Positions 2,879-49,665 of a stretch of DNA of 64,000 nt are shown here, piece by piece. The stretch spans positions 4,350 to 68,349 of the forward strand of contig LCKO01000006.1 of assembly GCA_001001485.1 (NCBI GenBank), read 5' to 3'. The number at the start of each line of letters is the position of its first letter. Position 1 is the first letter of the stretch. The notes below the pieces were generated by a model that ran no database searches, was not told the DNA's origin, and saw only the letters and a program-made list of their open reading frames with translations. The DNA comes from Candidatus Collierbacteria bacterium GW2011_GWB2_45_17. GTDB taxonomy: Bacteria > Patescibacteriota > Microgenomatia > UBA1400 > MFAQ01. The position numbers were made by a program, and so were the translations under genes.

Positions 2879-3230
2879 GATTTTTTAAATATTTTATTAA
2901 AGCGTTGATGGAAATTATCAGTTTTTCGTATTTTGACTTGATAATTTCATAATCAGCGAGATCAATGTATTTTAGTTTACTGCATATTCGCAACAAAACT
3001 ATTGTCTCCCCTATTGAGCCCCTTGAAATAACAAGAAAGTGTCTGAAATCTTTATGTGTGTCTCTGTAAAAACCCTCGGCGATATTGGCACAGACTGAGA
3101 CTGTTGCTCTAGATATTTGAGATGATAGCCCAAATTTTTCCACCGCGGGTAGGCTCTTGATTACCGAGTATATCTGCAAAGTAATTTCTTCTGCTTCATT
3201 AAGAATTTTGATATCTTCTAAGGTTTTCAT
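2871..3230 (-). CDS. four-helix-bundle protein (TIGR02436-like, the family commonly encoded in 23S rRNA intervening sequences)
   Basis: 119 aa. Characteristic 'ANIAEGFYRDTHKDFRHFLVISRGSIGE' core. Confidence 0.8.
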   Translation of the reverse strand: MKTLEDIKILNEAEEITLQIYSVIKSLPAVEKFGLSSQISRATVSVCANIAEGFYRDTHKDFRHFLVISRGSIGETIVLLRICSKLKYIDLADYEIIKSKYEKLIISINALIKYLKNHD

Positions 3231-3266
3231 TGCACTATTAACTTTGCACTAAGCACTACGCACTAT

Positions 3267-3567: not shown

Positions 3568-3608
3568 GAGATTGCCACGACCCGCCATAGCGGGCCTCGC
3601 AATGACGG
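3568..3608. repeat. module A repeat copy (divergent) within the six-frame ORF upstream of the HigB-like start
   Basis: 'gagattgccacgacccgccatagcgggcctcgcaatgacgg'. Confidence 0.65.
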
Positions 3609-10936: not shown

Positions 10937-11018
10937 GATTGCTTCGTCGTTTCACTCCTCGCAATGACGGGTGGAGTGAGATTGCCACGTCGCGATTACA
11001 CTCTTCGCAATGACGTGG
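10937..11018. repeat. two tandem module A copies at the 3' end of the GT4 gene
   Basis: 'agattgcttcgtcgtttcactcctcgcaatgacgg' followed by 'gagattgccacgtcgcgattacactcttcgcaatgacgtgg'. Confidence 0.8.
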
Positions 11019-16247: not shown

Positions 16248-17992
16248 GGAAGTTCGATTATTTTAAAAGCGGTTGACCCATCCAGAAAATTGATGGTTTT
16301 TAAAACGTTGGCTCCTGTCGGAAGATGATCCGGCGAAGCAACCATCAAACTGTTGGATGTCGGAATCTCTCCGCCACTTTCCAGAGGTAACGAGGTGATC
16401 TTGCCGACCGGAATTTGCCAGTCGTTAACGAAGTAGACGTTATCGATTTTGTCCGTCCAAAACCAGTCCGATTTTTCAAACCGAATATTGTCCCCGCCCG
16501 GTTGTAATTTTTCAGGGGCAAGTTGGTTATAAAAAGCATAGAAAATATGGGCTTCACCATAGCGTTTGGAGATAAAGACTTTGGAAAAGTTTTTCTGAGT
16601 ATTAATAAAATCGAAGACTTGCCGGTAACCATATTGCCAAGACTCCGAGTAGGTCTTGGAGTAGTTAGTGAAGTAGTCGTCTGAATAAATGACGAAAACG
16701 ATAATAGCCACTGTCATCACTAAAGCAATTAAAAATGTTTTGGCAAAAGCCGAGAGACGATCCGCAAGAAAAAATAAACCTAAAGCGGCAATAATTACGG
16801 TAGCAGGAATCATGGGGTTTGGACGTAGAGCTTGTGGGGGATCGACTGTTAGGGCAGAAGCAACAGGAGAGAGCAAGAGCCAAGAAAGAATGAATTGATT
16901 CGATTTTTCACTTGGATTTTTAATTAAGTAAAATATCCCAATTAAAAATAAAACCATAATGGGAAAGCCAAGAAGGTTTCTGCCGGGGATAGCGAACTGG
17001 AACTGGGCTCCCCTGCTCTGATTGAAGAAATCCGGAGCGAAGTAACCAAAATAATTATTGATGAAAGTCTGGGCAAAATACAAAGGTCGGTTATAGACAA
17101 ATTTGGCGATGATGGGAGGTAAGCCACTCTCCAGTCTTTTCTGTCCTAGGGTGTAGGCAGTTGATTCGGTGATGATATTTAATTTGCCATAACGGGCAGT
17201 GCCGGTACCAGTAAAGATCTGATAAGCCACAATGGTGGCGAAAAAGGCAAGAATTAATATTGCGATCACCATCTTGATCCTGGATTGCCACGTCGCAAAC
17301 GCTCCTCGCAATGACCGCCAGTAAATAATGATAAAGGCCAAAATAATTGTGGGGACAAAAATTCTAGAAGTATTGTAGGTATGAAGAGATAAGCCAAAAA
17401 GGAAAGCAGAAGCTATTAGTGCGAAGTTGTTGGTTCGAGGTTCGTTGATAGAGCGTATTAGAAAGTAGGCTGCGAAAATTATTAGAGTTAGTGAAAGATT
17501 GGCCTCCAATGCCGGGCGGGAAATAAAGAAGTGCCAGGGCATAAAGGCAAGGAAGAAAGCGGAGATAGTTGGCAGATTACAGATGTCAGATGACAGTTTA
17601 GGTAATTTGTTTATGGACTTGTTGTTATTTCTGAGAACTGAGAACTTAGAACTGAGAACTAATTGATTTGCGAGAAGGTAGATACCTGGAATGGCGAGGG
17701 TGCCGGCAAGGGCGGAGATAAAGCGGATTGAAAAAACCGAAAGACCAAAAGCCCAAACAGGGAAGACCGTCAGATATATATAGAGGGGCAGTTTGTAATC
17801 GCCAAAAGCTCTGAAAATTAGGGGTAGTCTAGTTCCCCATTCGTCTTTTCCGGTAAGAAGAATTGAGTAGGCGTTATAACCATGACTGATTTCATCCCAG
17901 TTAGGGGCGACCGGAAAACGATCTAACCAGAAGAATCTGACTAAACCACCCAACAAAGTTAAAATTAAAAGAATCAGAAGTTGTTTTTTCAT
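16244..17992 (-). CDS. ArnT/PMT-like GT-C glycosyltransferase, paralog 3
   Basis: 582 aa. 'NWDEISHGYNAYSI' loop. Carries in-frame copies of modules A ('SLRGAFATWQS'), B and C. Confidence 0.7.
   Translation of the reverse strand: MKKQLLILLILTLLGGLVRFFWLDRFPVAPNWDEISHGYNAYSILLTGKDEWGTRLPLIFRAFGDYKLPLYIYLTVFPVWAFGLSVFSIRFISALAGTLAIPGIYLLANQLVLSSKFSVLRNNNKSINKLPKLSSDICNLPTISAFFLAFMPWHFFISRPALEANLSLTLIIFAAYFLIRSINEPRTNNFALIASAFLFGLSLHTYNTSRIFVPTIILAFIIIYWRSLRGAFATWQSRIKMVIAILILAFFATIVAYQIFTGTGTARYGKLNIITESTAYTLGQKRLESGLPPIIAKFVYNRPLYFAQTFINNYFGYFAPDFFNQSRGAQFQFAIPGRNLLGFPIMVLFLIGIFYLIKNPSEKSNQFILSWLLLSPVASALTVDPPQALRPNPMIPATVIIAALGLFFLADRLSAFAKTFLIALVMTVAIIVFVIYSDDYFTNYSKTYSESWQYGYRQVFDFINTQKNFSKVFISKRYGEAHIFYAFYNQLAPEKLQPGGDNIRFEKSDWFWTDKIDNVYFVNDWQIPVGKITSLPLESGGEIPTSNSLMVASPDHLPTGANVLKTINFLDGSTAFKIIELP
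17282..17317. repeat. module A copy, in frame inside ArnT-like paralog 3
   Basis: 'ggattgccacgtcgcaaacgctcctcgcaatgaccg'. Confidence 0.85.
17573..17665. repeat. composite of module C ('agattacagatgtcagatgacag') and module B ('tctgagaactgagaacttagaactgagaact'), in frame inside paralog 3
   Basis: Direct sequence match to the copies at 48585-48611 and to the module B blocks. Confidence 0.75.
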
Positions 17993-19653
17993 TGCTTAAA
18001 GTCAAAGACTTCCATAATTATCTCACCTGTCGGGGTAGTAACTTGATGCAGAGTGTGTCTTTCACTTGGTAGCAGGGAATTCCCCTGCCAAACATAAAGA
18101 GTTTCAAGATTTTTATCTTCCGGCCAATCTAATTTTTCGAATGAATATTTTCCCAATCTATATTTACCCATTTGATCCAAATAATCGACCGGATTTTTTT
18201 GCATTTCCTTTTCCCAGTCTGCAGAAGCTGCTTGAAAGACTGGTGGAGGTGTCTTAAGGTAAAAAGCAATGAACGATTGCCCTTGTGTCCCCTTATCGAC
18301 CATAACAGTATCGTAATTCCTCTGAATCTTTGAAATAGCATTCACGGTATCTCTCCAGCCGTAAGACAAGGCTTTGGGGTAGGTAACAACCGAGTTGAAA
18401 AAGTAATCCTCGAAATAGAATCCGGTCAGGATAATGGCCAGTCCGATAAAAAGTCCCAGGATTTTTTTAGAGTACTTATTTTTTATTTCCAGGAATCTAA
18501 CAAAACCAAAAGCGGCGATTATTTCCCATAGACACAAAAAGGAACCGGCACGGTTTGGGCGGTAACCTTCTTTAGTAAGCGCTGCCGGGATGGCGGCAAG
18601 GAGGAGCCAAATAAGTAGAGGTCTGGCATCGTAGTCTTCATCTTTTATCTTCTTAAGAAGAAGGAAAAGACCAAAAAGAACGAGAGGTAACATCCAGAAA
18701 AGAAGGAGTCCCCTACCTGGAATAACCGAGTAGGTTATTTCCCGACCACCTTCGGTAAACCAAAATGGTAAAGAGAAATAACTAAGATAATTCTCTCCGA
18801 ACCGAGAGATGACGGTAAATATTTTTCGGTGAAAGAGACGTGGTATTTTTGGGTTTATCTTTGCAAGTGGGGAGTAGAAAGATTGATCATCGATTTGTTT
18901 TAAATTGACAGTATCGAGTTTAGATACCAGAAGATCCCCTCCCCTTTTGGCGGAGTTGCCAAAAACTGAGTCTATAACTAGAGGACTTAAAAGAATAATA
19001 ATTGTCAGAAGGGCAGGCAGTAGTGATTTTAAACCTTTTGAAAAAATCTGCCGGCGATAAAGGAATAACAGCGAAAGGGCAAAGAGAGGAATATAGATTT
19101 TAGCCGAGTGATAGGCATACAAACTGAGACCCCAAAGAATGGCGGTGTAAATAAATTGTCGATGGTCTTTGAGTCCTCTCAAATATAAATAAAGTCCCAA
19201 GGGAAACAAAAAGGAGGTGAGGTTCACTTCCAAGGCAGTTCTTGAAAACTGGATATGCCAGGGAGAGAGGGCGAGAAAGATAGCACTATAGAGTGGAAGG
19301 TGTTTATAGTTAGGGAATATTTTGCCGGTGAGTAAATAAATCGCTAAGATGGCCAAGACCCCAAAGATGGCACTAGGGAGGCGCGCGGCAAATTCATTTA
19401 GCCCGAAGATTGCAACACTGGGAATCATCAAATAGGTCTGGAGGGGCGCTTTGTAGTCCAGAAATGACTTGAAAGAAGAAATCGGCCAACCCAATCCCCA
19501 CTCGTCCTTACCTGTTTGCAGAAGACTGTAGGCGCTATACGCCTGACTAGCTTCGTCTGGAGAAAAGCCGGCGGGTATGCGACCGAGGTAGGTGAAGCGT
19601 AGGAAAAGCCCCAGGATTAGGATTAAGGCAAGGAGGACTTTCCCGATTTTCAT
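17989..19653 (-). CDS. ArnT/PMT-like GT-C glycosyltransferase, paralog 4
   Basis: 554 aa. 'FSPDEASQAYSAYSL' loop. Confidence 0.7.
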   Translation of the reverse strand: MKIGKVLLALILILGLFLRFTYLGRIPAGFSPDEASQAYSAYSLLQTGKDEWGLGWPISSFKSFLDYKAPLQTYLMIPSVAIFGLNEFAARLPSAIFGVLAILAIYLLTGKIFPNYKHLPLYSAIFLALSPWHIQFSRTALEVNLTSFLFPLGLYLYLRGLKDHRQFIYTAILWGLSLYAYHSAKIYIPLFALSLLFLYRRQIFSKGLKSLLPALLTIIILLSPLVIDSVFGNSAKRGGDLLVSKLDTVNLKQIDDQSFYSPLAKINPKIPRLFHRKIFTVISRFGENYLSYFSLPFWFTEGGREITYSVIPGRGLLLFWMLPLVLFGLFLLLKKIKDEDYDARPLLIWLLLAAIPAALTKEGYRPNRAGSFLCLWEIIAAFGFVRFLEIKNKYSKKILGLFIGLAIILTGFYFEDYFFNSVVTYPKALSYGWRDTVNAISKIQRNYDTVMVDKGTQGQSFIAFYLKTPPPVFQAASADWEKEMQKNPVDYLDQMGKYRLGKYSFEKLDWPEDKNLETLYVWQGNSLLPSERHTLHQVTTPTGEIIMEVFDFKQ

Positions 19654-19654
19654 A

Positions 19655-21319
19655 CTACTTACTATTATATGGCTTGGTACCGGTCAAAATGTAGAAAAGA
19701 GGTTGACCGAAGATATTTTTTTGAGTGGCAAGAACTTTGGTGTTCTCCAAAGGGTTTTTACTCCAGTCCCAATCCCCTATCCCTTCGCGTCCTTGGACGG
19801 CGAGATAAAGATCATTGTTCGTCAGGAGGACTTTGAGCTCATCCAGATTGGGTGACTCTCCAAAATAGTATTTGTCCGCAAATTGGAACCCGTGGAAAGA
19901 TCTGGCTTGATAAGTATCAACCACATCAGTGACAAAGTTTTTTTGGAATTCCTTAGGTGAGTACCTGGTATAGAAAAGAAACATGAGAAGGGATGGCTGA
20001 TGGGTATTGTTGATGTAGACCTTGTCGTATTGAGGCAGTAGAGGTTTTAATTCAGTAAAAATATTTTTGAAACCATATTCCCAAAGAGAGGCAGACTCGT
20101 AACGGTAATGAGCAGAATAACGGTGAAAGTAACCGGCAAAAGAAACGGCGAGAATTATTAAGAAGATGAAGATCGTTGATTTGATTAATTTACTGGAGAA
20201 GAAACTTAGAAGATAAGTACCGCCGAGAGAGGAAATTAATATTAATGGAGGCAGCATTAGAAAAAGACGGGTGGCATGAGTGCCACCATCTACGGTGAGA
20301 CAGCTAGGTATTGGGGAAAGAAGAAGCCATAATAACAGTAGGCGGTTATTCTTTTCGGTAATATTTTTAAGCATGAAAAATAAACCAGCAAGAAATAGTG
20401 GAAGTAAGATTGTAAGAAGCTCACCGACCATTGAAACTGAGTGTCGGAATTGAGGATCGCCTTTTATAAAAAGAAACTGTGGGGAGAAAGCGGTGAGGTA
20501 GTTATTCATGAACGCCGAAGAAATGGCGAGATATTTGTTGTGAAAAAGGGTTTCAACAATTGATTTACCAACCCAGGGATCTGTTCTTTGGAGGATAACC
20601 GTTTCAATAATTTTTGAGTCACTAAAAATACTCACTAAATTGAAACGACCACCGGCTTGGCCAAAAAATACGTTGTAAATTACCGGAAAGAAGATGATTA
20701 AAGGGAGAATAAGACGGATCCAATTTGTTTTAAGATTAAGTCTTGGTTTAAAAACAAAAAGAAGAGAAAGAACAAATAAAGGGGTAAAGACCATGGCAGT
20801 CGAATAAGTATAGAAAGTGAGGACAAAAGGAATTAGACCGGCAAAATATTTTTCTTTCAAGAAGAGATGGGTACCGAGCATGACCAGGAAAATTAAGGGA
20901 ACGACCTCAAAAGCGGCTCTGGAAAAATGAATGTGCCAGGGAGTAAAAGCAAGTAATAAAGCCGATAAAAGAGCAGTTCTTTTGTTTTTAAAAATTGTTA
21001 AGCCGAGAAGGTAAATTAAATAAATGCTGGCGGAACCGAGCAGAGCTACGGGAAGTCGTACAGCCAGATCGGTGGGACCAAATATCCCTACAAAGGGAGC
21101 GGTGATGTACATGAGAAGCGGGGCGCGCCACTCTGAAAGGCTTTGGATATAGGTAGGTAAGAGGTGCCCCATGTAATCGCGACCGGTAGTGATGAGAGAC
21201 CAAGCCTGATAACCAACGTCTATTTCATCTCCAAAAAGAGCAATAGGAAGACTAGTGAGACTCTGGAGCCGAAAAAAAGCCCCGGCTGCAATAATGATCG
21301 CCAGAAAAGCTTCTATCAT
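19655..21319 (-). CDS. ArnT/PMT-like GT-C glycosyltransferase, paralog 5
   Basis: 554 aa. 'LFGDEIDVGYQAWSL' loop. Confidence 0.7.
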   Translation of the reverse strand: MIEAFLAIIIAAGAFFRLQSLTSLPIALFGDEIDVGYQAWSLITTGRDYMGHLLPTYIQSLSEWRAPLLMYITAPFVGIFGPTDLAVRLPVALLGSASIYLIYLLGLTIFKNKRTALLSALLLAFTPWHIHFSRAAFEVVPLIFLVMLGTHLFLKEKYFAGLIPFVLTFYTYSTAMVFTPLFVLSLLFVFKPRLNLKTNWIRLILPLIIFFPVIYNVFFGQAGGRFNLVSIFSDSKIIETVILQRTDPWVGKSIVETLFHNKYLAISSAFMNNYLTAFSPQFLFIKGDPQFRHSVSMVGELLTILLPLFLAGLFFMLKNITEKNNRLLLLWLLLSPIPSCLTVDGGTHATRLFLMLPPLILISSLGGTYLLSFFSSKLIKSTIFIFLIILAVSFAGYFHRYSAHYRYESASLWEYGFKNIFTELKPLLPQYDKVYINNTHQPSLLMFLFYTRYSPKEFQKNFVTDVVDTYQARSFHGFQFADKYYFGESPNLDELKVLLTNNDLYLAVQGREGIGDWDWSKNPLENTKVLATQKNIFGQPLFYILTGTKPYNSK

Positions 21320-42039: not shown

Positions 42040-42581
42040 TTAAAAAGGTTGGCTTGGTAGTATTTTAACTCATCGATGGACTCTAAAATGTCGCCTTTGG
42101 CTCGGTGAGGCTCCATCTTGGGATAGTCGGGGATGTTGGGGTACCAGCGGTGCAGAAGCTCCTTTATGGTGTTGGTGTCGACAATCCGATAATGGACAAA
42201 GTCGTAGAGCTTGGGCAGGTAGATTCTCAAAAATTCCCGATCAATGTAAATCGAAGAGCCGGCCAGTAAAGCCGTATGAGGAGCGCAGTACTTTCTTAAA
42301 AAATCCAATGTCTCTGCTTCTGCTTGAGCAATGGTAATCGAAGACCTCCGAATCTCCTCCAGCAGTCCGGACTGGCTGAAGTGTTCTCTGTTCCACCGAG
42401 CCATACCGGTAAGAGTCGATTCCGGCTGATGAATAACCAGGTCCGGCCCCGTGCCAAGCACTTTCAAACTTCCATCGGTAACCACAGTAGCAATTTCGAC
42501 GATGACGCCTTTATTAACATCCAAATCGGTAAATTCCAGATCGAGCCAGATCAGTGGTGAGCTGGGTAAAGTAGAACTCAT
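42036..42581 (-). CDS. orn: oligoribonuclease (DEDDh 3'-5' exonuclease)
   Basis: 'LIWLDLEFTDLD' Exo I motif, 'SSIYIDREFL' and C-terminal 'HRAKGDILESI'. Confidence 0.8.
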   Translation of the reverse strand: MSSTLPSSPLIWLDLEFTDLDVNKGVIVEIATVVTDGSLKVLGTGPDLVIHQPESTLTGMARWNREHFSQSGLLEEIRRSSITIAQAEAETLDFLRKYCAPHTALLAGSSIYIDREFLRIYLPKLYDFVHYRIVDTNTIKELLHRWYPNIPDYPKMEPHRAKGDILESIDELKYYQANLFK

Positions 42582-44065
42582 TTGGTGTGAACTAAGCGAT
42601 AAATTTTTAAATAATCAATGTTCCACTGACCCTCTACGTGAGAAGGGCCGAAGACGGCGATCTGCCAAGCGGGATGGCCTTCCGGCTGACAGCTATCCCC
42701 ATCTTCACAGATAACAAAAAGTTGGTCGACTATCCTTTCCTCACCTCTCACTAAATTGGCTTTTTTGTTCTCCAAGAAATAGCGGTAAGACTCATCGTAG
42801 TTTTGCTTAGCAATGAGACCGAAGTTAAAAGATTCGCCTTTTGACTCTTGAATAATCAGATCGACGGTGGCTGAAGTGCGCCAGAGTTGGCGATTGGGAT
42901 TTTCTTTGACTGGGCTAAAAATCAAACTGTAAGAAAATAGAAAAATTATTAAGGTCAATGAAAAAAATTTAAGAACAAGATTTTTTTCAAAAAGGAAACC
43001 GAAGACCGCGCCGAGCAATAAATAGATGGCAGGATAAATAAAGCCCAGATAGTGAACGTAGACATGTTGTTTATAAACACTCAGACCGAGAATTGCAAAA
43101 CCCAACCAAACAAAAAGTAATTTTAACGATGATTGCCACTTTGATTTAATAAAGACCAGGATCGAGAGGATAAAAACCATGATGGCGGTGAAAGGAGCCA
43201 GCAGTGTCTGACGCGCCAACACCATATCGGAGACCGTCATGAGGATTGTCGGCAAGAAACGATCCGATCGGACGGGATTGAGGTTGACCGTAGTTTGTCG
43301 GTCGGTAAAAAAGGCACGAAAGGCGTTGAAGTTTAGCCATTGATGTTTAATGTCAAAGAGGAGTAAAGGCGACATTAAAATCAAAAAACTCAAAAAACCA
43401 AATAAAGAAAAACGTAAAAAACTTTTTTTGGATTTTAGATCTTTGGATTTATTGATAGAAATCAAAGTAAAGAGCCAGAAAAGACCGAGAACCGGAATGA
43501 GGAGTAGTCCGAGATAGTGCATCTGCAAGGCAAAGGCGAAGAAAATACCGACTAAAGATAACCAGAAATATTTTTTATTTCTCCAAACTTCATAAATTCC
43601 CCAAATACAAAGCAAGGAGAAAAGGGGCATGGGGTTCGGGTTCCAAGAAGAACGAGAATAGATAATGGCGACCGGTGAAACGGCATACAAAAGAGCGGCC
43701 ACGACTCCGGCGGATTTGCTAAACCAAACTCGACCAACAAACCAGGTAAGCCAAACGGTCAGAGTTCCGATTAGAGCGACCGCTATGGCAGGGCCGATGG
43801 GACTAAGACGAGAAAGCAGCAAAGCAGGGGCCATCAGATAGTAATAGAGGGGGCCAAGGTACATGTTACCAATGCTGGTTTGGGGGCCAATGAAGACCAG
43901 ATTTCCTTTGGTAACGAGATCCCGAACGATGCGAACGTCACGCCCTTCGTCTCCCAAGAAAGTCATAAAATCACCAATACGATACAGACGAAGGAACAAG
44001 GCGAGAAGTAAAATTAAAATCAACAAGACCGACTCGAATTTGTTTTTTTTGATGAAGTCGATCAT
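42578..44065 (-). CDS. ArnT/PMT-like GT-C glycosyltransferase
   Basis: 'GDFMTFLGDEGRDVRIVRDL' DE loop. 495 aa, multi-TM. Confidence 0.65.
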   Translation of the reverse strand: MIDFIKKNKFESVLLILILLLALFLRLYRIGDFMTFLGDEGRDVRIVRDLVTKGNLVFIGPQTSIGNMYLGPLYYYLMAPALLLSRLSPIGPAIAVALIGTLTVWLTWFVGRVWFSKSAGVVAALLYAVSPVAIIYSRSSWNPNPMPLFSLLCIWGIYEVWRNKKYFWLSLVGIFFAFALQMHYLGLLLIPVLGLFWLFTLISINKSKDLKSKKSFLRFSLFGFLSFLILMSPLLLFDIKHQWLNFNAFRAFFTDRQTTVNLNPVRSDRFLPTILMTVSDMVLARQTLLAPFTAIMVFILSILVFIKSKWQSSLKLLFVWLGFAILGLSVYKQHVYVHYLGFIYPAIYLLLGAVFGFLFEKNLVLKFFSLTLIIFLFSYSLIFSPVKENPNRQLWRTSATVDLIIQESKGESFNFGLIAKQNYDESYRYFLENKKANLVRGEERIVDQLFVICEDGDSCQPEGHPAWQIAVFGPSHVEGQWNIDYLKIYRLVHTK

Positions 44066-44797: not shown

Positions 44798-45913
44798 ATG
44801 AAACGAACGTATTTATTCTTGTTGTCGGCCTTGTTTACGTTGGCAATATGGATTCCTTTTGGACTAAAAATGAAACTTCCCCTTTGGGGTTTGGACTTCT
44901 CCGAAGGGACTAAAATCCTTTGGCAAAATTACGACGGACCAAACTACTTGATTGTAGAAAAAACTTGGTACGACAAAGAAATGATTAAGACTTCGTTCTC
45001 GACTACTGAACCGACCGAGTATTTCCCGGCACACTTTCCTCTTTATCCGGCGGTAATTTCTGTATTTGATCCATTTCTAAAAGGTCCAAGCGCCATGCTC
45101 TTAGCCACTCTTATTGGATCCGTTCTCTGTTTCTTGATGTTTTATAAATATTTATTGGAATTTAAATTAAGTGTTGATCCGTTCTGGCTGACTTTAGTAT
45201 TTATGATTTTTCCCGCCAGATGGTTGGCTCTAAGAGGGGTGGGCTCACCCGAACCATGGTTTATTTTGTTTATTCTGGCTAGTCTTTTTTACTTTAAAAA
45301 AGAGAAATACATACTGGCAGGAATATTTGGAGCTTTAGCTCAACTAACAAAAAGCCCGGCAGTGATACTATTGGCCGCTTACGGAATATTTGCTATTGTT
45401 CAGTCAATTAAAGAGAAAAAGATTCAGTGGAAATATTGGCCTCTGCTACTTCAGGCTTTAGCTGTCGTTGGTTTATTTTTGTTTTTCAAAATCAGAACCG
45501 ATGACTTATTGGCTTATCTCCATAGTGGTGATAATATTCATCTTTTTTGGCCACCGTTTAGTGTGTTTGCTCCAAAGGGGCAAGTATGGGTGGGAAATTT
45601 CTGGCTGGAAGATATTATCTGGACCTGGTTGGTTTTCGGAATTGGAATTATGAAACTCAAAGAAAAGAAATTGGATATTGAGTATTACTTTGCCGGATTA
45701 TTTTTTCTGTCGACTCTCTTTATTGCTCATAGGGATATCAGTAGATATATTTTACCCGCGACTCCATTAGTTCTTATCGGTTGGGATAATCTGGTACACA
45801 AAAAAGAATTCAAATTAATTGCTTGCTTACTGATATTCCCGATCTTTCTGTTTACTTGGAACTTCTTGCTGAACAACACCGCCCCAATAGCCGATTGGGC
45901 ACCATATTTGTGA
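44798..45913 (+). CDS. polytopic membrane protein (GT-C/DUF2029-like)
   Basis: 371 aa, multi-TM. Only large plus-strand gene within the locus, divergent from the GT2 gene at 44062. Confidence 0.4.
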   Translation: MKRTYLFLLSALFTLAIWIPFGLKMKLPLWGLDFSEGTKILWQNYDGPNYLIVEKTWYDKEMIKTSFSTTEPTEYFPAHFPLYPAVISVFDPFLKGPSAMLLATLIGSVLCFLMFYKYLLEFKLSVDPFWLTLVFMIFPARWLALRGVGSPEPWFILFILASLFYFKKEKYILAGIFGALAQLTKSPAVILLAAYGIFAIVQSIKEKKIQWKYWPLLLQALAVVGLFLFFKIRTDDLLAYLHSGDNIHLFWPPFSVFAPKGQVWVGNFWLEDIIWTWLVFGIGIMKLKEKKLDIEYYFAGLFFLSTLFIAHRDISRYILPATPLVLIGWDNLVHKKEFKLIACLLIFPIFLFTWNFLLNNTAPIADWAPYL

Positions 45914-45926
45914 AACAAATATGGAA

Positions 45927-45996
45927 AGAACTCAAGGAATCAAGGACACAAGAACTCAAGACAGGCAAAATATTAAACAAAAGAACTCAAGGCAAT
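45927..45996. repeat. AGAACTCAAG oligo-repeat block (module B), left flank of the four-helix-bundle gene
   Basis: 'agaactcaaggaatcaaggacacaagaactcaagacagg…aagaactcaagg'. Confidence 0.8.
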
Positions 45997-46000
45997 TAAA

Positions 46001-46354
46001 GTGATAAGTACAAAGCAAAGACTGGAAGATAGATTGCCAATTTTATTACGGTCGGTCGTTCGATTGTGCAAAAAATATCAGACTGAATTAATTGCCAAAA
46101 GAATTATTCCACAGCTCGTCGCTTCAATCGGGTCGATTGGTGCAAACTATCAAGAGGCTACGGCCGCGATGAGTAAGAAGGACTTTGTTAAATGTCTTAA
46201 GATCGCACGAAAGGAAGCTCGAGAAAGTATCATTTGGTTAGAAGGAATGGACGAATTGTCTGATGGTGCAGATAAACAAATTCCAGAAATAACTCAAGAG
46301 GTAAAAGAGGTGAGTTATATTCTTACAAGTATTATCTCGAAAACTGAGTCTTAA
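46001..46354 (+). CDS. four-helix-bundle protein (TIGR02436-like)
   Basis: 'IGSIGANYQEATAAMSKKDFVKCLKIARKEARESIIWLE' core. Second copy of this family in the window. Confidence 0.8.
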   Translation: MISTKQRLEDRLPILLRSVVRLCKKYQTELIAKRIIPQLVASIGSIGANYQEATAAMSKKDFVKCLKIARKEARESIIWLEGMDELSDGADKQIPEITQEVKEVSYILTSIISKTES

Positions 46355-46366
46355 CCTTTTTCTTTA

Positions 46367-46409
46367 CTTGTCTTGAGTTCTAGATTCCTCGAGTTCTTGA
46401 GTTCTTATC
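46367..46409. repeat. module B block in inverted orientation, right flank of the four-helix-bundle gene
   Basis: 'cttgtcttgagttctagattcctcgagttcttgagttcttatc' is the reverse complement of the left-flank motif. Confidence 0.8.
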
Positions 46410-47583
46410 GCTTTTTCCAAATCACGAGGTTGTAGATGAACCAGTTGAGGGGGACGGTGATCGCGAAGACGGCGAGGACGAGGAAGAGGGTGCGGTATTG
46501 GTCACCGAATACTTGTGTACCGACGCCGATCACCAGGCTGGGCAGAACAATCCCCGAGACGACGGAGCTGAGATTGAAGGTGGTAAATTTTTTGACTAAG
46601 GTGGTACCCCAGATCAGCTTTTCGTTTTTGAAGGTCCAAAGGTTATTGAGAATAAAGTTGCTGATGATCGAAAATTCGGCGGCAAGGGCATTTGCTAATG
46701 TATTTCTAACCCCAACGACGCTGATCAAATTGCTAAGAAGCTTGGCAAAGATATCGAGGCCGACCTTGTTGATGACAAAGCCAAAAAGACCGATAGTGCC
46801 AAATTTGATAAACTTTTGGGTGGTGGAGTCGTTCCATCTGAGTAAAACAGCTGTTCTGAGAATATCTTTGGCTGTCTGCGGTTCAATCTTGGACTCACCC
46901 GTTTCTCTGAGGCCAAACTGTAAAGGGATTTCCTTAATCTTGGCACCTAATTGAATGGTCTTGTAAATAAACTCCAGTTTGTAGCCAAAACTTCTGGAAT
47001 ACAAATGATCCATGTCCATGGTGTCGACAAAGCCTTTGATACGGGTAGCCTTTAGGCCGGTGGTGGGGTCGGTAAGGCGGAAAAAGTTTTTGGTTGGAAA
47101 GAACATGAAAATCCTTGCAGCTAAGCCACCTACTTCACTAAAGAAAAGTCTCTTGAAACCCCAACCTTTGGGATTACTACCACCTTTGATCTTGCGGGAG
47201 CCCAAGACATAATCATAACCTTCATCAATAGCCTGAAGCATGATGGGGATGGTGGTGGGCGGGTGCTGAAAATCACTATCGAACTCGATGACTACATCGG
47301 CGTCGTGCTTACTCATAGCTCTTCTAAAACCCTTTACATAAGCTGCACCAATCCCCTCTTTTTTGGTTTCGATCAGAAGATCAAGATCTGGGTATTGCTT
47401 TTGTTTGTCTTGAATTATTTTCCAAGTACCATCTGGGGACTTGCCATCGACGTAGAGTAAAACACATTTCCAGTTGGAGATTTTGGGAAAGGTTTTGATA
47501 AAAAGATAATCGATCATCCTCGCAGTGTGCCCTGCTTCATTGTAAGTGGGGATGACAATGACGGCGACGGGGAGTTGCTTCAT
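46405..47583 (-). CDS. GT2 polyprenyl-phosphate glycosyltransferase fused to a C-terminal GtrA-like membrane domain
   Basis: N-terminal 'VAVIVIPTYNEAGH…' GT2 region. The C-terminal ~120 aa holds 4 TM helices of GtrA type ('FIKFGTIGLFGFVIN…'). Confidence 0.7.
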   Translation of the reverse strand: MKQLPVAVIVIPTYNEAGHTARMIDYLFIKTFPKISNWKCVLLYVDGKSPDGTWKIIQDKQKQYPDLDLLIETKKEGIGAAYVKGFRRAMSKHDADVVIEFDSDFQHPPTTIPIMLQAIDEGYDYVLGSRKIKGGSNPKGWGFKRLFFSEVGGLAARIFMFFPTKNFFRLTDPTTGLKATRIKGFVDTMDMDHLYSRSFGYKLEFIYKTIQLGAKIKEIPLQFGLRETGESKIEPQTAKDILRTAVLLRWNDSTTQKFIKFGTIGLFGFVINKVGLDIFAKLLSNLISVVGVRNTLANALAAEFSIISNFILNNLWTFKNEKLIWGTTLVKKFTTFNLSSVVSGIVLPSLVIGVGTQVFGDQYRTLFLVLAVFAITVPLNWFIYNLVIWKKR

Positions 47584-47586
47584 TGA

Positions 47587-47814
47587 TTATTTATCTTTGC
47601 AACAATCGCCACCGCAACAGTTATCGTTTTTTTCAGAAATTTCTTCACGTTTTCCGGTTTCGTCGTACCAGTAGAGTTTTTTTTCGTCCTCGCCGACAGT
47701 CTTGGTGTGGGATCCGTCACAAAAGGGTTGGTTTTTTGATAAGCCACACATACAGATATGTTTATCTCCTACCTGAACGGGAGTGTGGGCGGTTTTTTTT
47801 ATTAGTCTGGGCAT
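47587..47814 (-). CDS. CDGSH-type iron-sulfur domain protein
   Basis: 'CMCGLSKNQPFCDGSHTK' CDGSH motif. The six-frame ORF extends 12 codons further upstream into the module B block, so the start is taken at the Met of 'MPRLIKK'. Confidence 0.6.
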   Translation of the reverse strand: MPRLIKKTAHTPVQVGDKHICMCGLSKNQPFCDGSHTKTVGEDEKKLYWYDETGKREEISEKNDNCCGGDCCKDK

Positions 47815-47828
47815 GAGGATATTATATA

Positions 47829-47868
47829 GCTCAAGAACTCGAGAACTCAAGGAATCAAGAACTCAAGC
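47829..47868. repeat. module B block, intergenic between the CDGSH gene and trmD
   Basis: 'gctcaagaactcgagaactcaaggaatcaagaactcaagc'. Confidence 0.8.
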
Positions 47869-47880
47869 TATAATTGGAGT

Positions 47881-48525
47881 ATGAAGATTGATATTTTGAC
47901 TATATTCCCAGAAATGTTTGAGGGAGTGTTTAAAACCTCGATTATCGGCCGGGCGACAGGGACGAGGGTGGTGGACATCAAGGTTCACAATCTGCGCGAC
48001 TGGAGTGATGATAATTATAAGAGTGTGGACGATCGGCCTTTTGGGGGGGGCGCGGGCATGGTGATGAGAGTGGATGTGGTGGAGAGAGCAATTAAAGAAC
48101 TCAAGAACTCAAGAACTCAAGAACTCAAGACTAGGGTGATATTGATGGATACGAAGGGGAAAATGTACGACCAAAAAGTAGCCGAGAAGCTGAAACTCGA
48201 AGAACGCCTAATTTTGATTGCGCCCCATTTTGAAGGTATCGACCATCGGGTACATGAACACTTGGCGGATGAGGTTTATAGCATCGGGCCTTACGTCCTG
48301 AGTGGTGGAGAGCTACCGGTGATGGTGGTGGTGGACAGTCTTTGCCGCTTGTTGCCCGGGGTGCTGGGGAACTCCGAGTCGCTTAAAGAAGAGTCTTACA
48401 GTGAGGAAATGGAGATAGAGTACCCGCAATACACCAGACCGGCGGAGTACAAGGGTTGGAAGGTGCCGGAGGTACTTCTCTCGGGTGATCACAAAAAAAT
48501 TGAGGCGTGGAGGAAGAAGCGGTAA
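47881..48525 (+). CDS. trmD: tRNA (guanine37-N1)-methyltransferase
   Basis: 'MKIDILTIFPEMFEG…SIGPYVLSGGELPVMVVVDSLCRLLPGVLGN' matches TrmD. An in-frame (AAGAACTC)x4 insertion encodes 'KELKNSRTQELKT' at 48095-48131. Confidence 0.85.
   Translation: MKIDILTIFPEMFEGVFKTSIIGRATGTRVVDIKVHNLRDWSDDNYKSVDDRPFGGGAGMVMRVDVVERAIKELKNSRTQELKTRVILMDTKGKMYDQKVAEKLKLEERLILIAPHFEGIDHRVHEHLADEVYSIGPYVLSGGELPVMVVVDSLCRLLPGVLGNSESLKEESYSEEMEIEYPQYTRPAEYKGWKVPEVLLSGDHKKIEAWRKKR
48095..48131. repeat. module B tandem octamer repeat inside trmD
   Basis: 'aagaactcaagaactcaagaactcaagaactcaagac'. Confidence 0.85.
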
Positions 48526-48534
48526 ATTTATATA

Positions 48535-48581
48535 GATTGCCACGTCGGATTACCTCCTCGCAATGACGAATGGTGGGAGGG
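48535..48581. repeat. module A repeat copy (intergenic)
   Basis: 'agattgccacgtcggattacctcctcgcaatgacgaatggtgggagg'. Shares the 5' flank 'aatttatatagattgc' with the copy at 10925. Confidence 0.8.
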
Positions 48582-48590
48582 AAAATAGAT

Positions 48591-48611
48591 TACAGATGTC
48601 AGATGTCAGTG
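48591..48611. repeat. module C repeat 'agattacagatgtcagatgtcag'
   Basis: The same 20-mer (1 mismatch) occurs at 17573-17596 inside a GT-C CDS. Confidence 0.7.
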
Positions 48612-48886
48612 TAATGTAAAGGTTTAGATTTTTTCTGGGCGAGTTCTCGAGCTTCCTCGGCTGTCGTGGCAAGACCGTTTCTTAAATATTTCATTGCTTT
48701 TAGATATTGATCAGGATCCGGAAGTATTTCAGCCAGATCTCCAGCAATTTCTAAATACTCAGCAGTCTGCAACTGCTGAATTCTTTTGAATTCATTGCCT
48801 TTTCTCTCTGCATCAGAACTGTCATTTCTTTCTTCATTCAAACGGTTGACCTCTTTGTCTCTTAGATATTTCACAAGTGGTTCCAT
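48599..48886 (-). CDS. hypothetical protein
   Basis: 95 aa ORF, charged/helical. No recognisable family. Confidence 0.35.
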   Translation of the reverse strand: MEPLVKYLRDKEVNRLNEERNDSSDAERKGNEFKRIQQLQTAEYLEIAGDLAEILPDPDQYLKAMKYLRNGLATTAEEARELAQKKSKPLHYTDI

Positions 48887-48894
48887 ACGAAGGA

Positions 48895-49665
48895 TTATAA
48901 CTTAGGGATTCCGAAGGGGATGAGATAAATGATAGTATCGGATGAAGGAATTGTCACCAAGTCTTTTATTTTTAATTCGTCAAACGAACTGATGACTACC
49001 ATTCCCAATCTAAGGCTTTCAGCTTGAAGATAGAGACTTTGAGCCACATGACCGGCTTCGAGATAGACTTCTTTGTCGTGGCCGATGCCACCATAAGCTT
49101 CGGCCATCTTACCCATATTGCCGGTGATTACCAGGACCGCCGGAGCTTTTTTGAAAGAACTTTCGTTTAGAGCCTCGTAAAGAGCCTGTTGGAGCTCAAC
49201 TGATTGGATGGGTTTTAGCTGATGAACCGGAGTTCTGTCTCCCGGAAGATATTGGTACTCACCAGCCTCTAAACCGGTAACTTTGGAAGCTACCAGAAAA
49301 ATCGATAGAGGGTAGGTTGACTTGGCTGAAGGAGCCGTCCGGCCTCCCCAGTCTACAGTGACCCCTTGCGCGGACCAGAGCATCTGAGAGACTTGTTTGA
49401 GAGAAAGTTCTTTATCCTGGAAGTCTCTCCTGGTGCGGCGATTCTTTAAAGTCGCCTCGACAGAGTTACTGCTCCTAAATTCTGGGCTGGGTAGAGAAAT
49501 ATTTTCGGCCGGAAGAATGGTGGCAGAAGCGGTTGATTCCGGACTGCCGGTGGTAGGAGAAGTTTTTTTAATAACTATCGTACCCAGAAGGATAAAAAAT
49601 ACAACTAAAGCAGTCAGCGCCGGTGTTAGCCAGTGTTTGAGAGGTGAAGGCGCTGTCTTTTTCAC
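48895..49665 (-). CDS. nitroreductase-family protein (SagB-type dehydrogenase-like) with N-terminal signal/TM
   Basis: 'RRTRRDFQDKELSLKQVSQMLWSAQG' nitroreductase-fold N-terminal motif. 256 aa. Confidence 0.55.
   Translation of the reverse strand: MKKTAPSPLKHWLTPALTALVVFFILLGTIVIKKTSPTTGSPESTASATILPAENISLPSPEFRSSNSVEATLKNRRTRRDFQDKELSLKQVSQMLWSAQGVTVDWGGRTAPSAKSTYPLSIFLVASKVTGLEAGEYQYLPGDRTPVHQLKPIQSVELQQALYEALNESSFKKAPAVLVITGNMGKMAEAYGGIGHDKEVYLEAGHVAQSLYLQAESLRLGMVVISSFDELKIKDLVTIPSSDTIIYLIPFGIPKL

What the first reader, a model, noticed from the sequence alone, without database searches (positions are those of the whole stretch)
45927..48131. AGAACTCA(AG) oligo-repeat (module B): in frame in trmD, flanking a four-helix-bundle gene as inverted repeats, and inside GT-C paralogs
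An (AAGAACTC)x4 block is inserted in frame into the essential trmD gene (48095-48131), encoding 'KELKNSRTQELKT'. This lies between the conserved 'GGGAGMVMRVDVVERAI' and 'RVILMDTKG' segments of TrmD. The same motif forms the 5' leader of the CDGSH gene and the trmD upstream region (47829-47868). It also brackets the four-helix-bundle gene as imperfect inverted repeats (45927-45996 and 46367-46409). The complementary form (cagttctcag) occurs in frame in ArnT paralogs 2 and 3 and in the 1107-aa protein. In-frame 8-mer x4 (32 nt, completed to a multiple of three by flanking bases) in a housekeeping enzyme is unusual. It suggests a second stop-free insertion module, or a slipped-strand/contingency-type repeat.
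Basis: seen in the sequence. Interest (0 to 1): 0.65.

Follow-up and report, generated by a model that had tools for sequence, protein, structure and literature searches.

The report
Octamer-repeat arms of a four-helix-bundle cassette
The AAGAACTC blocks are copies of one small repeat that normally brackets an Avd-like four-helix-bundle gene as inverted arms. In this group of ultra-small bacteria the repeat has also spread, readable and stop-free, into housekeeping genes such as trmD.

Summary
The core observation is real. Four AAGAACTC-type octamer arrays of 36-44 nt lie between 45926 and 48131, and nowhere else in the 64 kb.

- **trmD copy:** it is in frame and is an expansion relative to 209-aa TrmD relatives. 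It is not a contingency locus, because unit number is fixed among close relatives.
- **Four-helix-bundle gene:** the two arrays around the PF05635 (Avd-like, "23S rRNA IVS protein") gene are its inverted arms. This architecture is general. In 73 of 85 dereplicated PF05635 loci, the gene is bracketed by inverted arrays of lineage-specific 7- or 8-nt repeats. The RNase III-processed 23S IVS of Coxiella has the same layout.
- **Spread:** in Collierbacteria-type genomes the same element is dispersed. It sits in frame, always in the sense orientation, in LeuRS, CysRS, TopA, UvrD, YchF and other proteins.
- **Origin of the trmD copy:** the unexpanded trmD already reads AAAGAACTCAAGAC (KELKT), which is one unit plus the array terminus. 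This suggests homology-guided copying, which I infer rather than show.
- **GT-C paralogs:** the repeats there are heptamers of another unit, so they belong to the same class but not the same motif.

How the element spreads, and what the four-helix-bundle protein does, remain unknown. I rate this a new variant of a known kind.

The parts
45926..45969 (+). W1: the 5' arm of the cassette. Octamer array AAGAACTC AAGGAATC AAGGACAC AAGAACTC AAGAC plus a tail. It starts 13 nt after the stop codon of the upstream 371-aa membrane-protein gene.
   Evidence: Inverted repeat I1 with 46363-46406. TRF period 8. It forms the closing stem in the RNA fold.
45977..45999 (+). An extra partial copy (ACAAAAGAACTCAAGGCAATTAA) between the 5' arm and the GTG start codon. 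It can pair alternatively with 46362-46381.
   Evidence: Direct repeat family D2 and inverted repeat I9.
46001..46354 (+). Four-helix-bundle gene, 117 aa. It belongs to PF05635 (23S_rRNA_IVP / TIGR02436), the Avd-like family.
   Evidence: Pfam E = 2.3e-12. A profile of the family matches PDB 2rld. Orthologues at 51-97% identity all carry inverted arms.
46363..46406 (-). W2: the 3' arm, which is the same array in reverse complement. Its last two bases overlap the stop codon of the convergent GT2-GtrA gene (46405-47583, minus strand).
   Evidence: It is also 88-91% complementary to W3 and W4 (I2 and I3).
47829..47868 (+). W3: a solo array that fills the spacer between the two divergent TATAAT-like boxes of the CDGSH gene (minus strand) and trmD (plus strand). 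Its reverse complement supplies a TTGAGT -35-like hexamer for the CDGSH side.
   Evidence: The promoter scan gives 10 of 12 matches on the minus strand at 47850-47821. The array is absent from the orthologous spacer in L004, is 3 units long in L001 and L093, and carries a nested palindrome in L007.
47881..48525 (+). trmD, the tRNA (m1G37) methyltransferase gene that hosts the in-frame array.
   Evidence: Pfam PF01746, E = 2.2e-51. It is 100% identical to a Candidatus Collierbacteria TrmD.
48094..48132 (+). W4: the in-frame array A(AAGAACTC)x4 AAGACT, encoding KELKNSRTQELKT (TrmD residues 72-84).
   Evidence: The base state in L216 is AAAGAACTCAAGACTGAAAATACTAAA. In the AlphaFold2 model, helix 64-76 is followed by loop 77-83 and strand 84-95.

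Best explanation
The AAGAACTC blocks are copies of one short repeat element. It has 3-5 octamer units, and in the arrays tabulated the first unit is perfect. An AAGGAATC-type variant is often internal, and the end is usually AAGAC or AAGAT. Its home is as the two inverted arms of a stand-alone IVS-type cassette, which brackets an Avd-like four-helix-bundle gene (PF05635).

**Shown**
- The cassette architecture is conserved. In W, L007, L093, L128, L130, L132 and L134, and in most PF05635 loci sampled from metagenomes, the gene sits between an A/C-rich array of lineage-specific 7- or 8-nt tandem repeats and the reverse complement of that array.
- The two arms change unit sequence together (AAGAACTC paired with GAGTTCTT, AAAAACTC paired with GAGTTTTT).
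- The same element also occurs as solo copies, and as gene-less inverted pairs, scattered through Collierbacteria-type genomes.
- Inside genes it is found only in the stop-free sense orientation, where it is translated as hydrophilic KNSRTQEL-type loops in housekeeping proteins.

**Inferred**
- In the transcript, the arms pair into a stem of about 40 bp that closes off the four-helix-bundle ORF. Such a stem would be a double-stranded RNase III substrate, as shown experimentally for the homologous S23p-containing 23S rRNA IVS of Coxiella.
- The trmD copy arose when three extra units (24 nt, in frame) were copied from a nearby array into a native KELKT codon string (AAAGAACTCAAGAC). That string already equalled one unit plus the array terminus. 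The likely route is gene conversion or template switching guided by short homology, not transposition and not stepwise slippage.
- The trmD copy is a tolerated extension of a helix end and loop. It is not a switch.
- W3 is a solo arm sitting between two divergent promoters.
For: **Cassette**
- A 44-nt inverted repeat brackets the PF05635 gene.
- In the RNA fold of 45915-46415 the arms form the closing stem. The z-score is -4.7, and 0 of 100 shuffles fold as well.
- Orthologous and paralogous cassettes at three different positions in the same glycosylation gene cluster all have inverted octamer arms.
- The arms co-vary: the G-C pair at unit position 3 becomes A-U on both sides in the AAAAACTC lineages.

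**Generality**
- 73 of 85 dereplicated PF05635 loci have flanking inverted repeats that beat all 100 shuffles (median z = 8.8). Only 13 of 230 control windows beat their shuffles.
- The best arm period is 7 nt in 50 (5' flank) and 57 (3' flank) of the 85 loci, and 8 nt in 18 and 16.
- A Phycisphaerae cassette uses AAGAACWC units.
- The Coxiella 23S IVS contains an S23p ORF, a 28-bp terminal inverted-repeat stem cut by RNase III, and 2-3 tandem heptamers upstream of the start codon (PMC4990558).

**Dispersal**
- A scan of genome contigs found the array on many contigs of Collierbacteria-type MAGs.
- All 14 arrays inside long ORFs are in the sense orientation.
- Pfam places eight of ten checked arrays between or within domains of LeuRS, TopA, CysRS (two arrays), CCA-adding enzyme, YchF, a GT2, a RimK-like ligase and a pseudouridine synthase; the UvrD array lies after its last reported domain match, and a second, shorter RimK-like ORF has a match only on the N-terminal side.
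- Arrays of a cassette's own arm type occur in its flanking DNA about 7 times more often than foreign arm types (0.32 against 0.045 hits per locus). These include gene-less inverted pairs.

**trmD**
- Relatives of 209-210 aa lack the expansion.
- The L216 base state is ATC AAAGAACTC AAGAC TGAAAAT.
- L217 carries (AAAAACTC)x2 in the same linker. L134 carries (AATTTCCA)x4 starting inside the GCAATT codons.
- Arrays share a higher-order unit order, so they are not pure 8-mer runs.
- The inserted residues map to a helix end and loop, with pLDDT about 80.
- In the alignment to S. aureus TrmD (PDB 3ky7), the chain has a 4-residue gap here.
Against: - **RNA pairing lacks the expected signal.** In the aligned arms, G:U and A:C mismatches are equal, 82 each. 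The complementarity could therefore be kept at the DNA level, for example as terminal repeats recognised by a protein, or by concerted evolution.
- **No processing or expression data exist** for any stand-alone cassette.
- **The cassette has probably been at this site for a long time.** L130, with a 4HB protein only 60% identical, has it at the same site. Its absence in L004 may therefore be a loss, which weakens the argument for recent mobility.
- **No target-site duplication was noticed** in the few junctions read by eye. Pfam found no transposase, integrase or reverse transcriptase among the 25 most frequent of 48 families matched in the window, although the other 23 were not listed.
- **Some cases look like remodelling, not insertion.** In YchF the array region replaces an ancestral charged segment of similar length (+0 to +4 aa).
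- **The link is not strict.** In L134 the trmD array unit (AATTTCCA) differs from the arms of the adjacent cassette (AAAAACTC).
- **Other phyla differ.** Many arrays in Acidobacteriota and Poribacteria have no PF05635 gene within 8 kb.
Confidence: 0.6

Rival explanations
1. The four-helix-bundle protein is a sequence-specific nucleic-acid-binding oligomer, as Avd-like proteins may be, and the 7-8-nt arrays are its binding sites. The arms would then autoregulate its own gene. Solo arrays at the CDGSH/trmD promoter and inside mRNAs would place those genes under its control. This could be true alongside the best explanation.
For: - Gene and arrays are conserved together while the unit sequence turns over, which suggests co-evolution.
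- Arrays have about 3-5 units. PDB 2rld is listed with five chains, although its oligomeric state was not examined.
- Arm polarity relative to the gene is consistent: A/C-rich at the 5' end, T/G-rich at the 3' end.
- W3 lies exactly between two -10 boxes.
- The equal G:U and A:C counts fit recognition of the units themselves, not selection on an RNA helix.
Against: - No binding data exist. That the Bordetella phage Avd pentamer binds nucleic acid non-specifically is my recollection, not something tested here.
- In the Coxiella IVS the protein is reported as probably not expressed (PMC4990558).
- In-CDS arrays are explained more simply by tolerance of a stop-free insert.
- In L134 the trmD array does not match the arms of the adjacent cassette.
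Confidence: 0.15
2. The cassette is a classical DNA transposon or MITE-like element. On this view the arrays are terminal inverted repeats bound by a transposase encoded elsewhere, or by the 4HB protein as an accessory. Solo arrays and gene-less inverted pairs would be non-autonomous derivatives, as REPINs are for RAYT.
For: - The 4HB gene is flanked by its own repeat in inverted orientation, as RAYT genes are by REPs.
- The cassette is found at three positions in one gene cluster and is absent in L004.
- Gene-less inverted pairs of the same unit lie near cassettes, in L174 at 160-240 and in window 43377-43450.
- Own-arm copies are enriched nearby.
- The equal G:U and A:C counts fit a constraint at the DNA level.
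- The Coxiella paper cites older proposals that IVSs are transposition remnants or mobile elements.
Against: - No target-site duplication was noticed at W1/W2, W3, W4 or in the relatives' junctions read.
- No transposase was seen.
- The 4HB fold has no known catalytic activity.
- The cassette is old at its present site (60% identical orthologue).
- The trmD and YchF cases look like homology-guided expansion or replacement at sites that already resembled a unit.
Confidence: 0.12
3. The arrays arose independently in place by slipped-strand expansion of local 8-mers, in a genome with a mutational bias towards such repeats. On this view they are not copies of one element.
For: - Unexpanded trmD already contains AAGAACTC AAGAC.
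- The YchF segment drifts gradually towards array-like sequence.
- The intergenic array W3 differs by whole units between relatives: about 4.5 units in W, 3 in L001 and L093.
Against: - One and a half units cannot slip to four in a single in-frame step, and any intermediate would frameshift trmD.
- Arrays at different loci share a higher-order unit order: a perfect first unit, an internal AAGGAATC, and an AAGAY end.
- L134 trmD has a perfect (AATTTCCA)x4 with only a 5-nt local seed, and that unit is the arm unit of other PF05635 cassettes.
- All four window arrays lie within 2.2 kb, and there are none in the other 62 kb.
Confidence: 0.1
4. The trmD array is a contingency locus. On this view, unit gain or loss by slipped-strand mispairing switches TrmD on and off or changes its level.
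For: It is a perfect 4-unit tandem repeat whose unit length is not a multiple of three.
Against: - trmD is a conserved housekeeping gene.
- The segment is identical in five sequences at 98-100% identity. It has the same length in every 214-aa relative listed, from independent assemblies.
- Relatives carry point-mutated, imperfect versions, which are poor slippage substrates.
Confidence: 0.03

Closest known systems
23S rRNA intervening sequences carrying an S23p / PF05635 ORF (Coxiella burnetii, Leptospira)
   Same: The protein family is the same. The ORF is enclosed by terminal inverted repeats that form a long stem. In Coxiella, 2-3 tandem heptamers (GACAGAT) lie just upstream of the start codon, within the IVS 5' region where RNase III cuts at the start of the first repeat, and their number varies between strains (PMC4990558).
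   Different: The cassette here lies between protein-coding genes, not in helix 9, 25 or 45 of 23S rRNA. Its unit is 8 nt. Its arm sequence is also dispersed as solo copies, some inside coding regions. RNase III processing has not been tested for it.
Rickettsia palindromic elements (RPEs)
   Same: Both are dispersed small repeats found in frame inside conserved housekeeping genes, adding hydrophilic surface peptides without destroying function. This comparison rests on my own knowledge of Ogata et al. 2000. The MITE review PMC10969869 turned up, but I did not read it.
   Different: From memory, RPEs are roughly 100-150-bp palindromes in Rickettsia. The element here is a 24-40-nt direct tandem array, tied to a specific gene cassette, in CPR bacteria.
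REP / REPIN elements and their RAYT genes
   Same: In both, a gene is flanked in inverted orientation by the same short repeat that is dispersed through the genome, and each lineage has its own repeat sequence (PMC3116915).
   Different: The gene here is a 117-aa four-helix bundle, not an IS200/IS605-type tyrosine transposase. The repeats are direct tandem arrays, not palindromic hairpins.
Cyanobacterial STRR heptamers and Beggiatoaceae TAACTGA direct repeats
   Same: Both are dispersed arrays of 2-6 tandem 7-nt units, mostly intergenic and oriented with respect to genes, with unknown function (PMC4679880; the STRR comparison is from my own knowledge).
   Different: A term search of PMC4679880 found no mention of PF05635, S23 or intervening sequences. 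Here the arrays are tied to the cassette and are frequently translated in frame.
Avd, the accessory protein of diversity-generating retroelements
   Same: PF05635 proteins are homologous to Avd (PMC10053308).
   Different: No reverse transcriptase appeared among the Pfam families listed for the window, and template/variable repeats were not looked for. Unit variation in the arrays is not adenine-specific.

Membership tests
S23p-type rRNA intervening sequence (IVS) | Encodes a PF05635 / S23p four-helix-bundle ORF | tested here: met
   Pfam PF05635, E = 2.3e-12, 47.5 bits against a cut-off of 33.8. The family profile matches PDB 2rld.
S23p-type rRNA intervening sequence (IVS) | Terminal inverted repeats that form a stem enclosing the ORF | tested here: met
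   44-nt arms, 82% complementary. They form the closing stem in the minimum-free-energy and centroid folds, z = -4.7.
S23p-type rRNA intervening sequence (IVS) | Short tandem direct repeats in the 5' arm upstream of the start codon (a feature described for Coxiella) | tested here: met
   Four octamer units at 45926-45957. The Coxiella IVS has heptamers.
S23p-type rRNA intervening sequence (IVS) | Inserted in a helix of the 23S (or 16S) rRNA gene | tested here: not met
   The flanking genes encode a 371-aa membrane protein and a GT2-GtrA glycosyltransferase. Rfam finds no rRNA or other family in 45000-49000.
S23p-type rRNA intervening sequence (IVS) | Excised from the transcript by RNase III | not testable with these tools
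   This needs RNA end-mapping or an in vitro cleavage assay.
Simple-sequence contingency locus | Repeat-number polymorphism between close strains or reads that switches the reading frame | tested here: not met
   The TrmD segment is identical in P0001, P0002, P0004, P0005 and P0065. It has the same length in all 214-aa relatives. Reads were not available.
Simple-sequence contingency locus | The host gene is dispensable or adaptive when switched off (for example surface or restriction-modification genes) | tested here: not met
   The host is trmD (PF01746), a conserved tRNA methyltransferase.
Rickettsia-palindromic-element-like in-frame selfish repeat | A dispersed repeat family inserted in frame in several unrelated conserved genes | tested here: met
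   TrmD plus ten proteins in related MAGs. Pfam domains lie on both sides of the array in eight of the ten.
Rickettsia-palindromic-element-like in-frame selfish repeat | The element is a palindrome of roughly 100-150 bp | tested here: not met
   The element is a direct tandem array of 24-40 nt with no internal palindrome.
REP/REPIN-RAYT system | The gene flanked by the repeats is a Y1 (IS200/IS605-like) transposase | tested here: not met
   The flanked gene is PF05635.
MITE / terminal-inverted-repeat transposon | Terminal inverted repeats plus target-site duplication | tested here: inconclusive
   Inverted repeats are present. No direct duplication was noticed in the W, L007, L128 and L130 junctions read by eye, but the array ends would hide a short one. 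No systematic test was run.
Diversity-generating retroelement | An Avd gene next to a reverse transcriptase and a template/variable repeat pair, with adenine-specific variation | tested here: not met
   No reverse transcriptase appears among the Pfam families listed for the 56 window ORFs, although only the top 25 of 48 families were shown. Unit variation is at positions 1, 4, 6 and 7 and is not restricted to A. A template/variable repeat pair was not searched for.

The most novel reading that the evidence does not exclude
Stand-alone Avd-like four-helix-bundle genes, together with their inverted arrays of 7-8-nt repeats, may be an unrecognised and widespread class of self-propagating element. 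On this reading the small protein binds its own repeat units and promotes copying of arm sequence into new sites that share a few bases of homology. The copying could go through an RNA or cDNA intermediate made by a host or DGR reverse transcriptase. That would seed solo arrays, gene-less hairpin pairs and in-frame peptide inserts in essential genes. The enigmatic heptamer repeats of cyanobacteria and Beggiatoaceae, and the rRNA IVSs, would then be facets of the same system.
Probability: 0.15. Interest if true: 0.9.

Novelty: new variant of a known kind. Interest (0 to 1): 0.7.

Why it matters
PF05635 "23S rRNA IVS proteins" and dispersed 7-8-nt tandem repeats have each been unexplained curiosities for decades. 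This locus, with the 85-locus survey it prompted, ties them together in three ways:
- The repeats are the paired arms of the gene.
- Each lineage has its own repeat unit.
- The arms escape as solo copies.

In CPR bacteria those copies are translated inside core enzymes (TrmD, aminoacyl-tRNA synthetases, topoisomerase I). This resembles the Rickettsia palindromic elements, but in a very different group with tiny genomes.

The result gives testable handles on what the four-helix-bundle protein does, through binding and RNase III processing assays. It also warns annotators and structural modellers that short KNSRTQEL-type loops in CPR proteins are repeat-derived.

Tried and rejected
- **PF05635 genes next to arrays in other phyla.** jackhmmer and a CPR-based HMM searched the loci from the genome scan. 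They found only the Collierbacteria orthologues, one Phycisphaerae cassette (L099) and a second window gene. None lay near the Acidobacteriota or Poribacteria arrays, which are instead followed by GC-rich hairpins and no ORF. I therefore make no claim of association for those phyla.
- **Wobble test for RNA-level selection.** G:U and A:C mismatches are equal at 82 each, so the test does not separate RNA pairing from DNA-level terminal repeats.
- **DGR-type adenine mutagenesis.** Unit variation is not A-specific, so this was rejected.
- **Rfam.** The search of 45000-49000 at E <= 1 returned only one chance hit.
- **Viral contigs.** Seven array hits appeared, including one gene-less inverted pair. 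None was obviously linked to this lineage, and I did not pursue them.
- **Literature.** Elhai et al. 2008 on cyanobacterial small dispersed repeats could not be retrieved. Searches found no paper linking PF05635 genes outside rRNA to flanking tandem repeats. Absence from this library does not prove novelty.
- **Strict matching of units.** I considered that each trmD array would always match the adjacent cassette's arm unit. L134 rejects this.
- **Recent gain at this site.** I considered that the cassette was recently gained in the window lineage. Orthologues at the same site with 60-79% protein identity argue that it has long been there, and that it was lost in L004 and replaced by a GIY-YIG gene in L216.

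Full report
**What is there**

The window comes from a Candidatus Collierbacteria genome (CPR/Microgenomates). Its TrmD is 100% identical to a Collierbacteria database entry.

Four arrays of the octamer AAGAACTC, with variants AAGGAATC, GAGAACTC, TAGAACTC and AAGGACAC, lie within 2.2 kb:
- **W1:** 45926-45969, plus strand.
- **W2:** 46363-46406, reverse complement.
- **W3:** 47829-47868, plus strand.
- **W4:** 48095-48131, plus strand.

A two-unit probe with up to 3 mismatches hits 12 times, against 0.9 expected. No shuffle out of 100 reaches 12, and the rest of the 64 kb is essentially empty of the motif.

W4 is four perfect units plus AAGAC, in frame in trmD, and reads KELKNSRTQELKT. W3 fills the 66-nt spacer between the divergent CDGSH and trmD genes, lying between two TATAAT-like boxes. 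On the minus strand it supplies a TTGAGT -35-like hexamer. W1 and W2 are 44-nt inverted arms, 82% complementary, around a 117-aa PF05635 four-helix-bundle gene.

**The claim about GT-C paralogs**

The repeats inside the GT-C paralogs and the 1107-aa protein are heptamer arrays (CTGAGAA/AGTTCTC, and also CAGATGT). They are not the complement of the octamer. The CTGAGAA and CAGATGT arrays at 17573-17660 add residues that the four tandem paralogs lack. The arrays at 13897 and 34268 lie inside their ORFs, but I did not compare them with homologues. I treat all of these as the same class of element but a different unit family.

**Is the trmD segment an insertion?**

Yes, relative to the wider clade.
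- Among 120 TrmD homologues, most are 209-210 aa with a 9-residue linker (ADLKKPGSK, KELKTENTK).
- A Collierbacteria subclade has +5 residues, as in the window. Others have +12, +16 or +19.
- In DNA, the relatives' segments are recognisably the same octamer array with point changes. This is not the 'unrelated nucleotide sequence' that would have refuted the finding.
- The segment is identical in five sequences at 98-100% identity, and has the same length in all 214-aa relatives. There is therefore no sign of unit-number instability in the gene.
- The intergenic array W3 does differ by whole units: about 4.5 in the window, and 3 in L001 and L093.
- An AlphaFold2 model places residues 72-84 at the end of helix 64-76 and in loop 77-83, before strand 84-95, with pLDDT about 80.
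- In the alignment to S. aureus TrmD (PDB 3ky7), the chain has a 4-residue gap here.

**The base state of trmD**

The 209-aa TrmD of L216 reads ATC AAAGAACTC AAGAC TGAAAATACTAAA. That is already one octamer plus the AAGAC terminus that ends the W1, W2 and W4 arrays and several others. The window gene equals this sequence plus three more units (24 nt), with GAAAATACTAAA replaced by AGG.

Two other lineages carry different arrays in the same linker:
- L217 has (AAAAACTC)x2.
- L134 has a perfect (AATTTCCA)x4 that begins inside the GCAATT codons for Ala-Ile.

AATTTCCA-type units are the arm units of other PF05635 cassettes. One and a half units cannot slip to four in a single in-frame step. The simplest reading is therefore copying from another array, guided by short homology at the junctions. 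I infer this; it is not shown.

**The four-helix-bundle gene and its arms are one unit**

Orthologues and paralogues of the 117-aa protein at 51-97% identity all carry inverted octamer arms:
- At the same site (L007, L128, L130).
- Between a GT2 and a PMT_2 gene (L132).
- Directly upstream of trmD (L134).

The unit changes in both arms together: AAGAACTC/GAGTTCTT in the window clade, AAAAACTC/GAGTTTTT in others. The transcript 45915-46415 folds with the arms as the closing stem (z = -4.7).

A profile search of metagenome contigs gave 80 more distant homologues. Pooling all loci and removing duplicates gave these results:
- 73 of 85 have flanking inverted repeats that beat every one of 100 shuffles (median z = 8.8). 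Only 13 of 230 control windows beat their 30 shuffles.
- The arms are tandem arrays. The best period is 7 nt in 50 (5' flank) and 57 (3' flank) of the 85 loci, and 8 nt in 18 and 16.
- The arms are A/C-rich upstream and T/G-rich downstream.
- Unit sequences differ widely between loci.

A second PF05635 gene in the window (2871-3230, minus strand) has TAGTGCN heptamers upstream and a partly complementary downstream flank.

**Link to what is known**

The Coxiella burnetii 23S IVS has the following features (PMC4990558):
- An S23p ORF.
- A 28-bp stem formed by terminal inverted repeats and cut by RNase III.
- Two or three tandem GACAGAT heptamers just upstream of the start codon, varying in number between strains.

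The window cassette has the same anatomy but lies between protein-coding genes. I therefore treat it as an IVS-type cassette outside rRNA. I infer that its arms pair in RNA and are likely to be an RNase III substrate. The inference is weakened by the wobble test, because G:U and A:C mismatches in the arms are equal at 82 each. A DNA-level constraint is equally possible.

**Dispersal**

Many hits are plain microsatellites in unrelated bacteria.

In Collierbacteria-type MAGs, heterogeneous arrays of the same design occur on many contigs. These MAGs include several titled 'Pseudomonadales' or 'Woesebacteria'. At least some of these are Collierbacteria-like by synteny or by TrmD and YchF identity.
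- About half of the arrays are intergenic, often abutting stop codons.
- The rest lie inside long ORFs, and all 14 are in the sense orientation.
- Pfam confirms real genes. Domain matches lie on both sides of the array in LeuRS, topoisomerase I, CysRS (two arrays), CCA-adding enzyme, YchF, a GT2, a RimK-like ligase and a pseudouridine synthase. The UvrD array follows its last reported match, and a second RimK-like ORF has only an N-terminal match.

In YchF the array-like stretch replaces an ancestral charged segment of similar length. It is not a clean insertion. This again fits conversion at a site that already resembled the array.

Across 50 cassettes, copies of a cassette's own arm type occur in its flanking 2-3 kb about seven times more often than foreign arm types. 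These include gene-less inverted pairs such as L174 160-240. Window 43377-43450 is a similar gene-less pair of an AAAAACYC-type array.

**What remains open**

- **Spread.** I do not know how the arrays spread. The few junctions read by eye show no target-site duplication, and no transposase, integrase or reverse transcriptase appears among the Pfam families listed for the window. Unit variation is not adenine-specific, which argues against DGR-type copying.
- **Age.** The cassette is probably old at its present site. It appears to have been lost in L004 and replaced by a GIY-YIG gene in L216, which keeps an AAAAACTC-type 5' array. Recent mobility is therefore not demonstrated.
- **Protein function.** Whether the four-helix-bundle protein binds the units is untested.

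**Verdict**

The finding is real and more interesting than a curiosity of one gene.
- The trmD block is a fixed, translated copy of a repeat whose home is the arms of an IVS-type four-helix-bundle cassette.
- It is not a phase-variation device.
- Literature searches in the held library found the rRNA IVS, Rickettsia palindromic elements, REP/RAYT systems and dispersed heptamer repeats. They found no description of stand-alone PF05635 cassettes with tandem-repeat arms whose copies enter coding regions.
- I rate it a new variant of a known kind, with interest 0.7.

Noticed in passing
window 2871-3230 (-), flanks 3232-3266 and about 2835-2870: A second PF05635 gene is present (best Pfam E = 3.7e-31 among the two window members). 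TAGTGCN heptamers lie upstream of its start codon. The downstream flank, rich in GCACCA, is only partly complementary to them.
   Followed up: partly
window 3571-3606, 10938-10968, 10981-11014, 14210-14241, 17259-17315, 48536-48567: A hairpin-type element, ATTGCCACGTCG...CTCCTCGCAATGAC, occurs at least six times. The copy at 14210 lies in frame in GT-C paralog 12895-14580, where it reads PPVIARSERDVAIS. In L217 it sits between the CDGSH and trmD -10 boxes, where the window has W3. In L074 it directly follows an octamer array inside UvrD.
   Followed up: partly
window 17573-17660 and 48585-48612: The heptamer arrays CAGATGT and CTGAGAA add about 20 residues (LSSKFSVLRN...KLSSDICNL) to GT-C paralog 16244-17992 relative to its four tandem paralogs. 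A near-identical AGATTACAGATGTCAGATG block lies just downstream of trmD.
   Followed up: partly
window 43377-43450, inside ORF 42578-44065 (-); also 13314-13349: A gene-less inverted pair of AAAAACYC-type arrays is translated in frame in a PMT_2 protein. The A-rich arm reads KSKDLKSKKS. The T-rich arm reads FSLFGFLSFLIL and looks like a transmembrane helix. L130 has a similar pair in its orthologous gene.
   Followed up: partly
L007 9955-9974 and 10236-10256; L016 1368; L045 959; L128 about 4620: A perfect 20-nt palindrome, CCTGCCTGCCGGCAGGCAGG, is nested inside both the intergenic array and the trmD array of one Collierbacteria genome. In TrmD it is in frame and reads PCLPAGR. It also occurs elsewhere, once in a Kuenenbacteria contig. 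A YchF relative (P0358) has a similar ARGGQA insert within its array.
   Followed up: partly
L216 1391-1678 and 4728-5015: In a relative with unexpanded TrmD, 95-aa GIY-YIG genes with their own hairpin repeats occupy the four-helix-bundle site and the site downstream of trmD. An AAAAACTC-type 5' array remains. These intergenic sites appear to be hotspots for small selfish genes.
   Followed up: no
L032, L037-L039, L064, L066, L082, L087, L088, L091, L114, L123 (Acidobacteriota); L014, L040, L054, L055, L108, L111 (Poribacteria): Two Acidobacteriota MAGs carry many AAGAACTC/GAGAACTC/AAGGACTC arrays, each followed by a GC-rich hairpin (GGAGGACGGC...GCCGTC). Poribacteria carry AAGAAATC arrays followed by GGTATGAATGCC...GGCATTC hairpins. 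No PF05635 gene was detected within 8 kb of any of them.
   Followed up: partly
L134 3486-4208: This 240-aa TrmD carries two in-frame repeat inserts. One is (AATTTCCA)x4 in the linker. The other is GCCCTGAGCGAAGTCGAAGGGC (ALSEVEG) near the C-terminal domain.
   Followed up: partly
L022, L028, L036, L053, L056, L057, L069, L073, L080, L096, L103, L109, L110, L216: Several MAG records titled 'uncultured Pseudomonadales' have 38-47% GC. Two of them, CAYGCQ (L216) and CAYTOI (L069), show Collierbacteria synteny or TrmD and YchF identities. Their titles look mislabelled.
   Followed up: partly
window 47815-47880: Each of the two divergent genes has a TATAAT-like box only about 6 nt upstream of its start codon. 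This suggests leaderless or near-leaderless mRNAs.
   Followed up: no
window 395-1288 and 12895-21319: An AbiEii-type toxin gene lies at the left end of the window. Five tandem GT-C (PMT_2-like) paralogs lie within a large glycosylation gene cluster.
   Followed up: no
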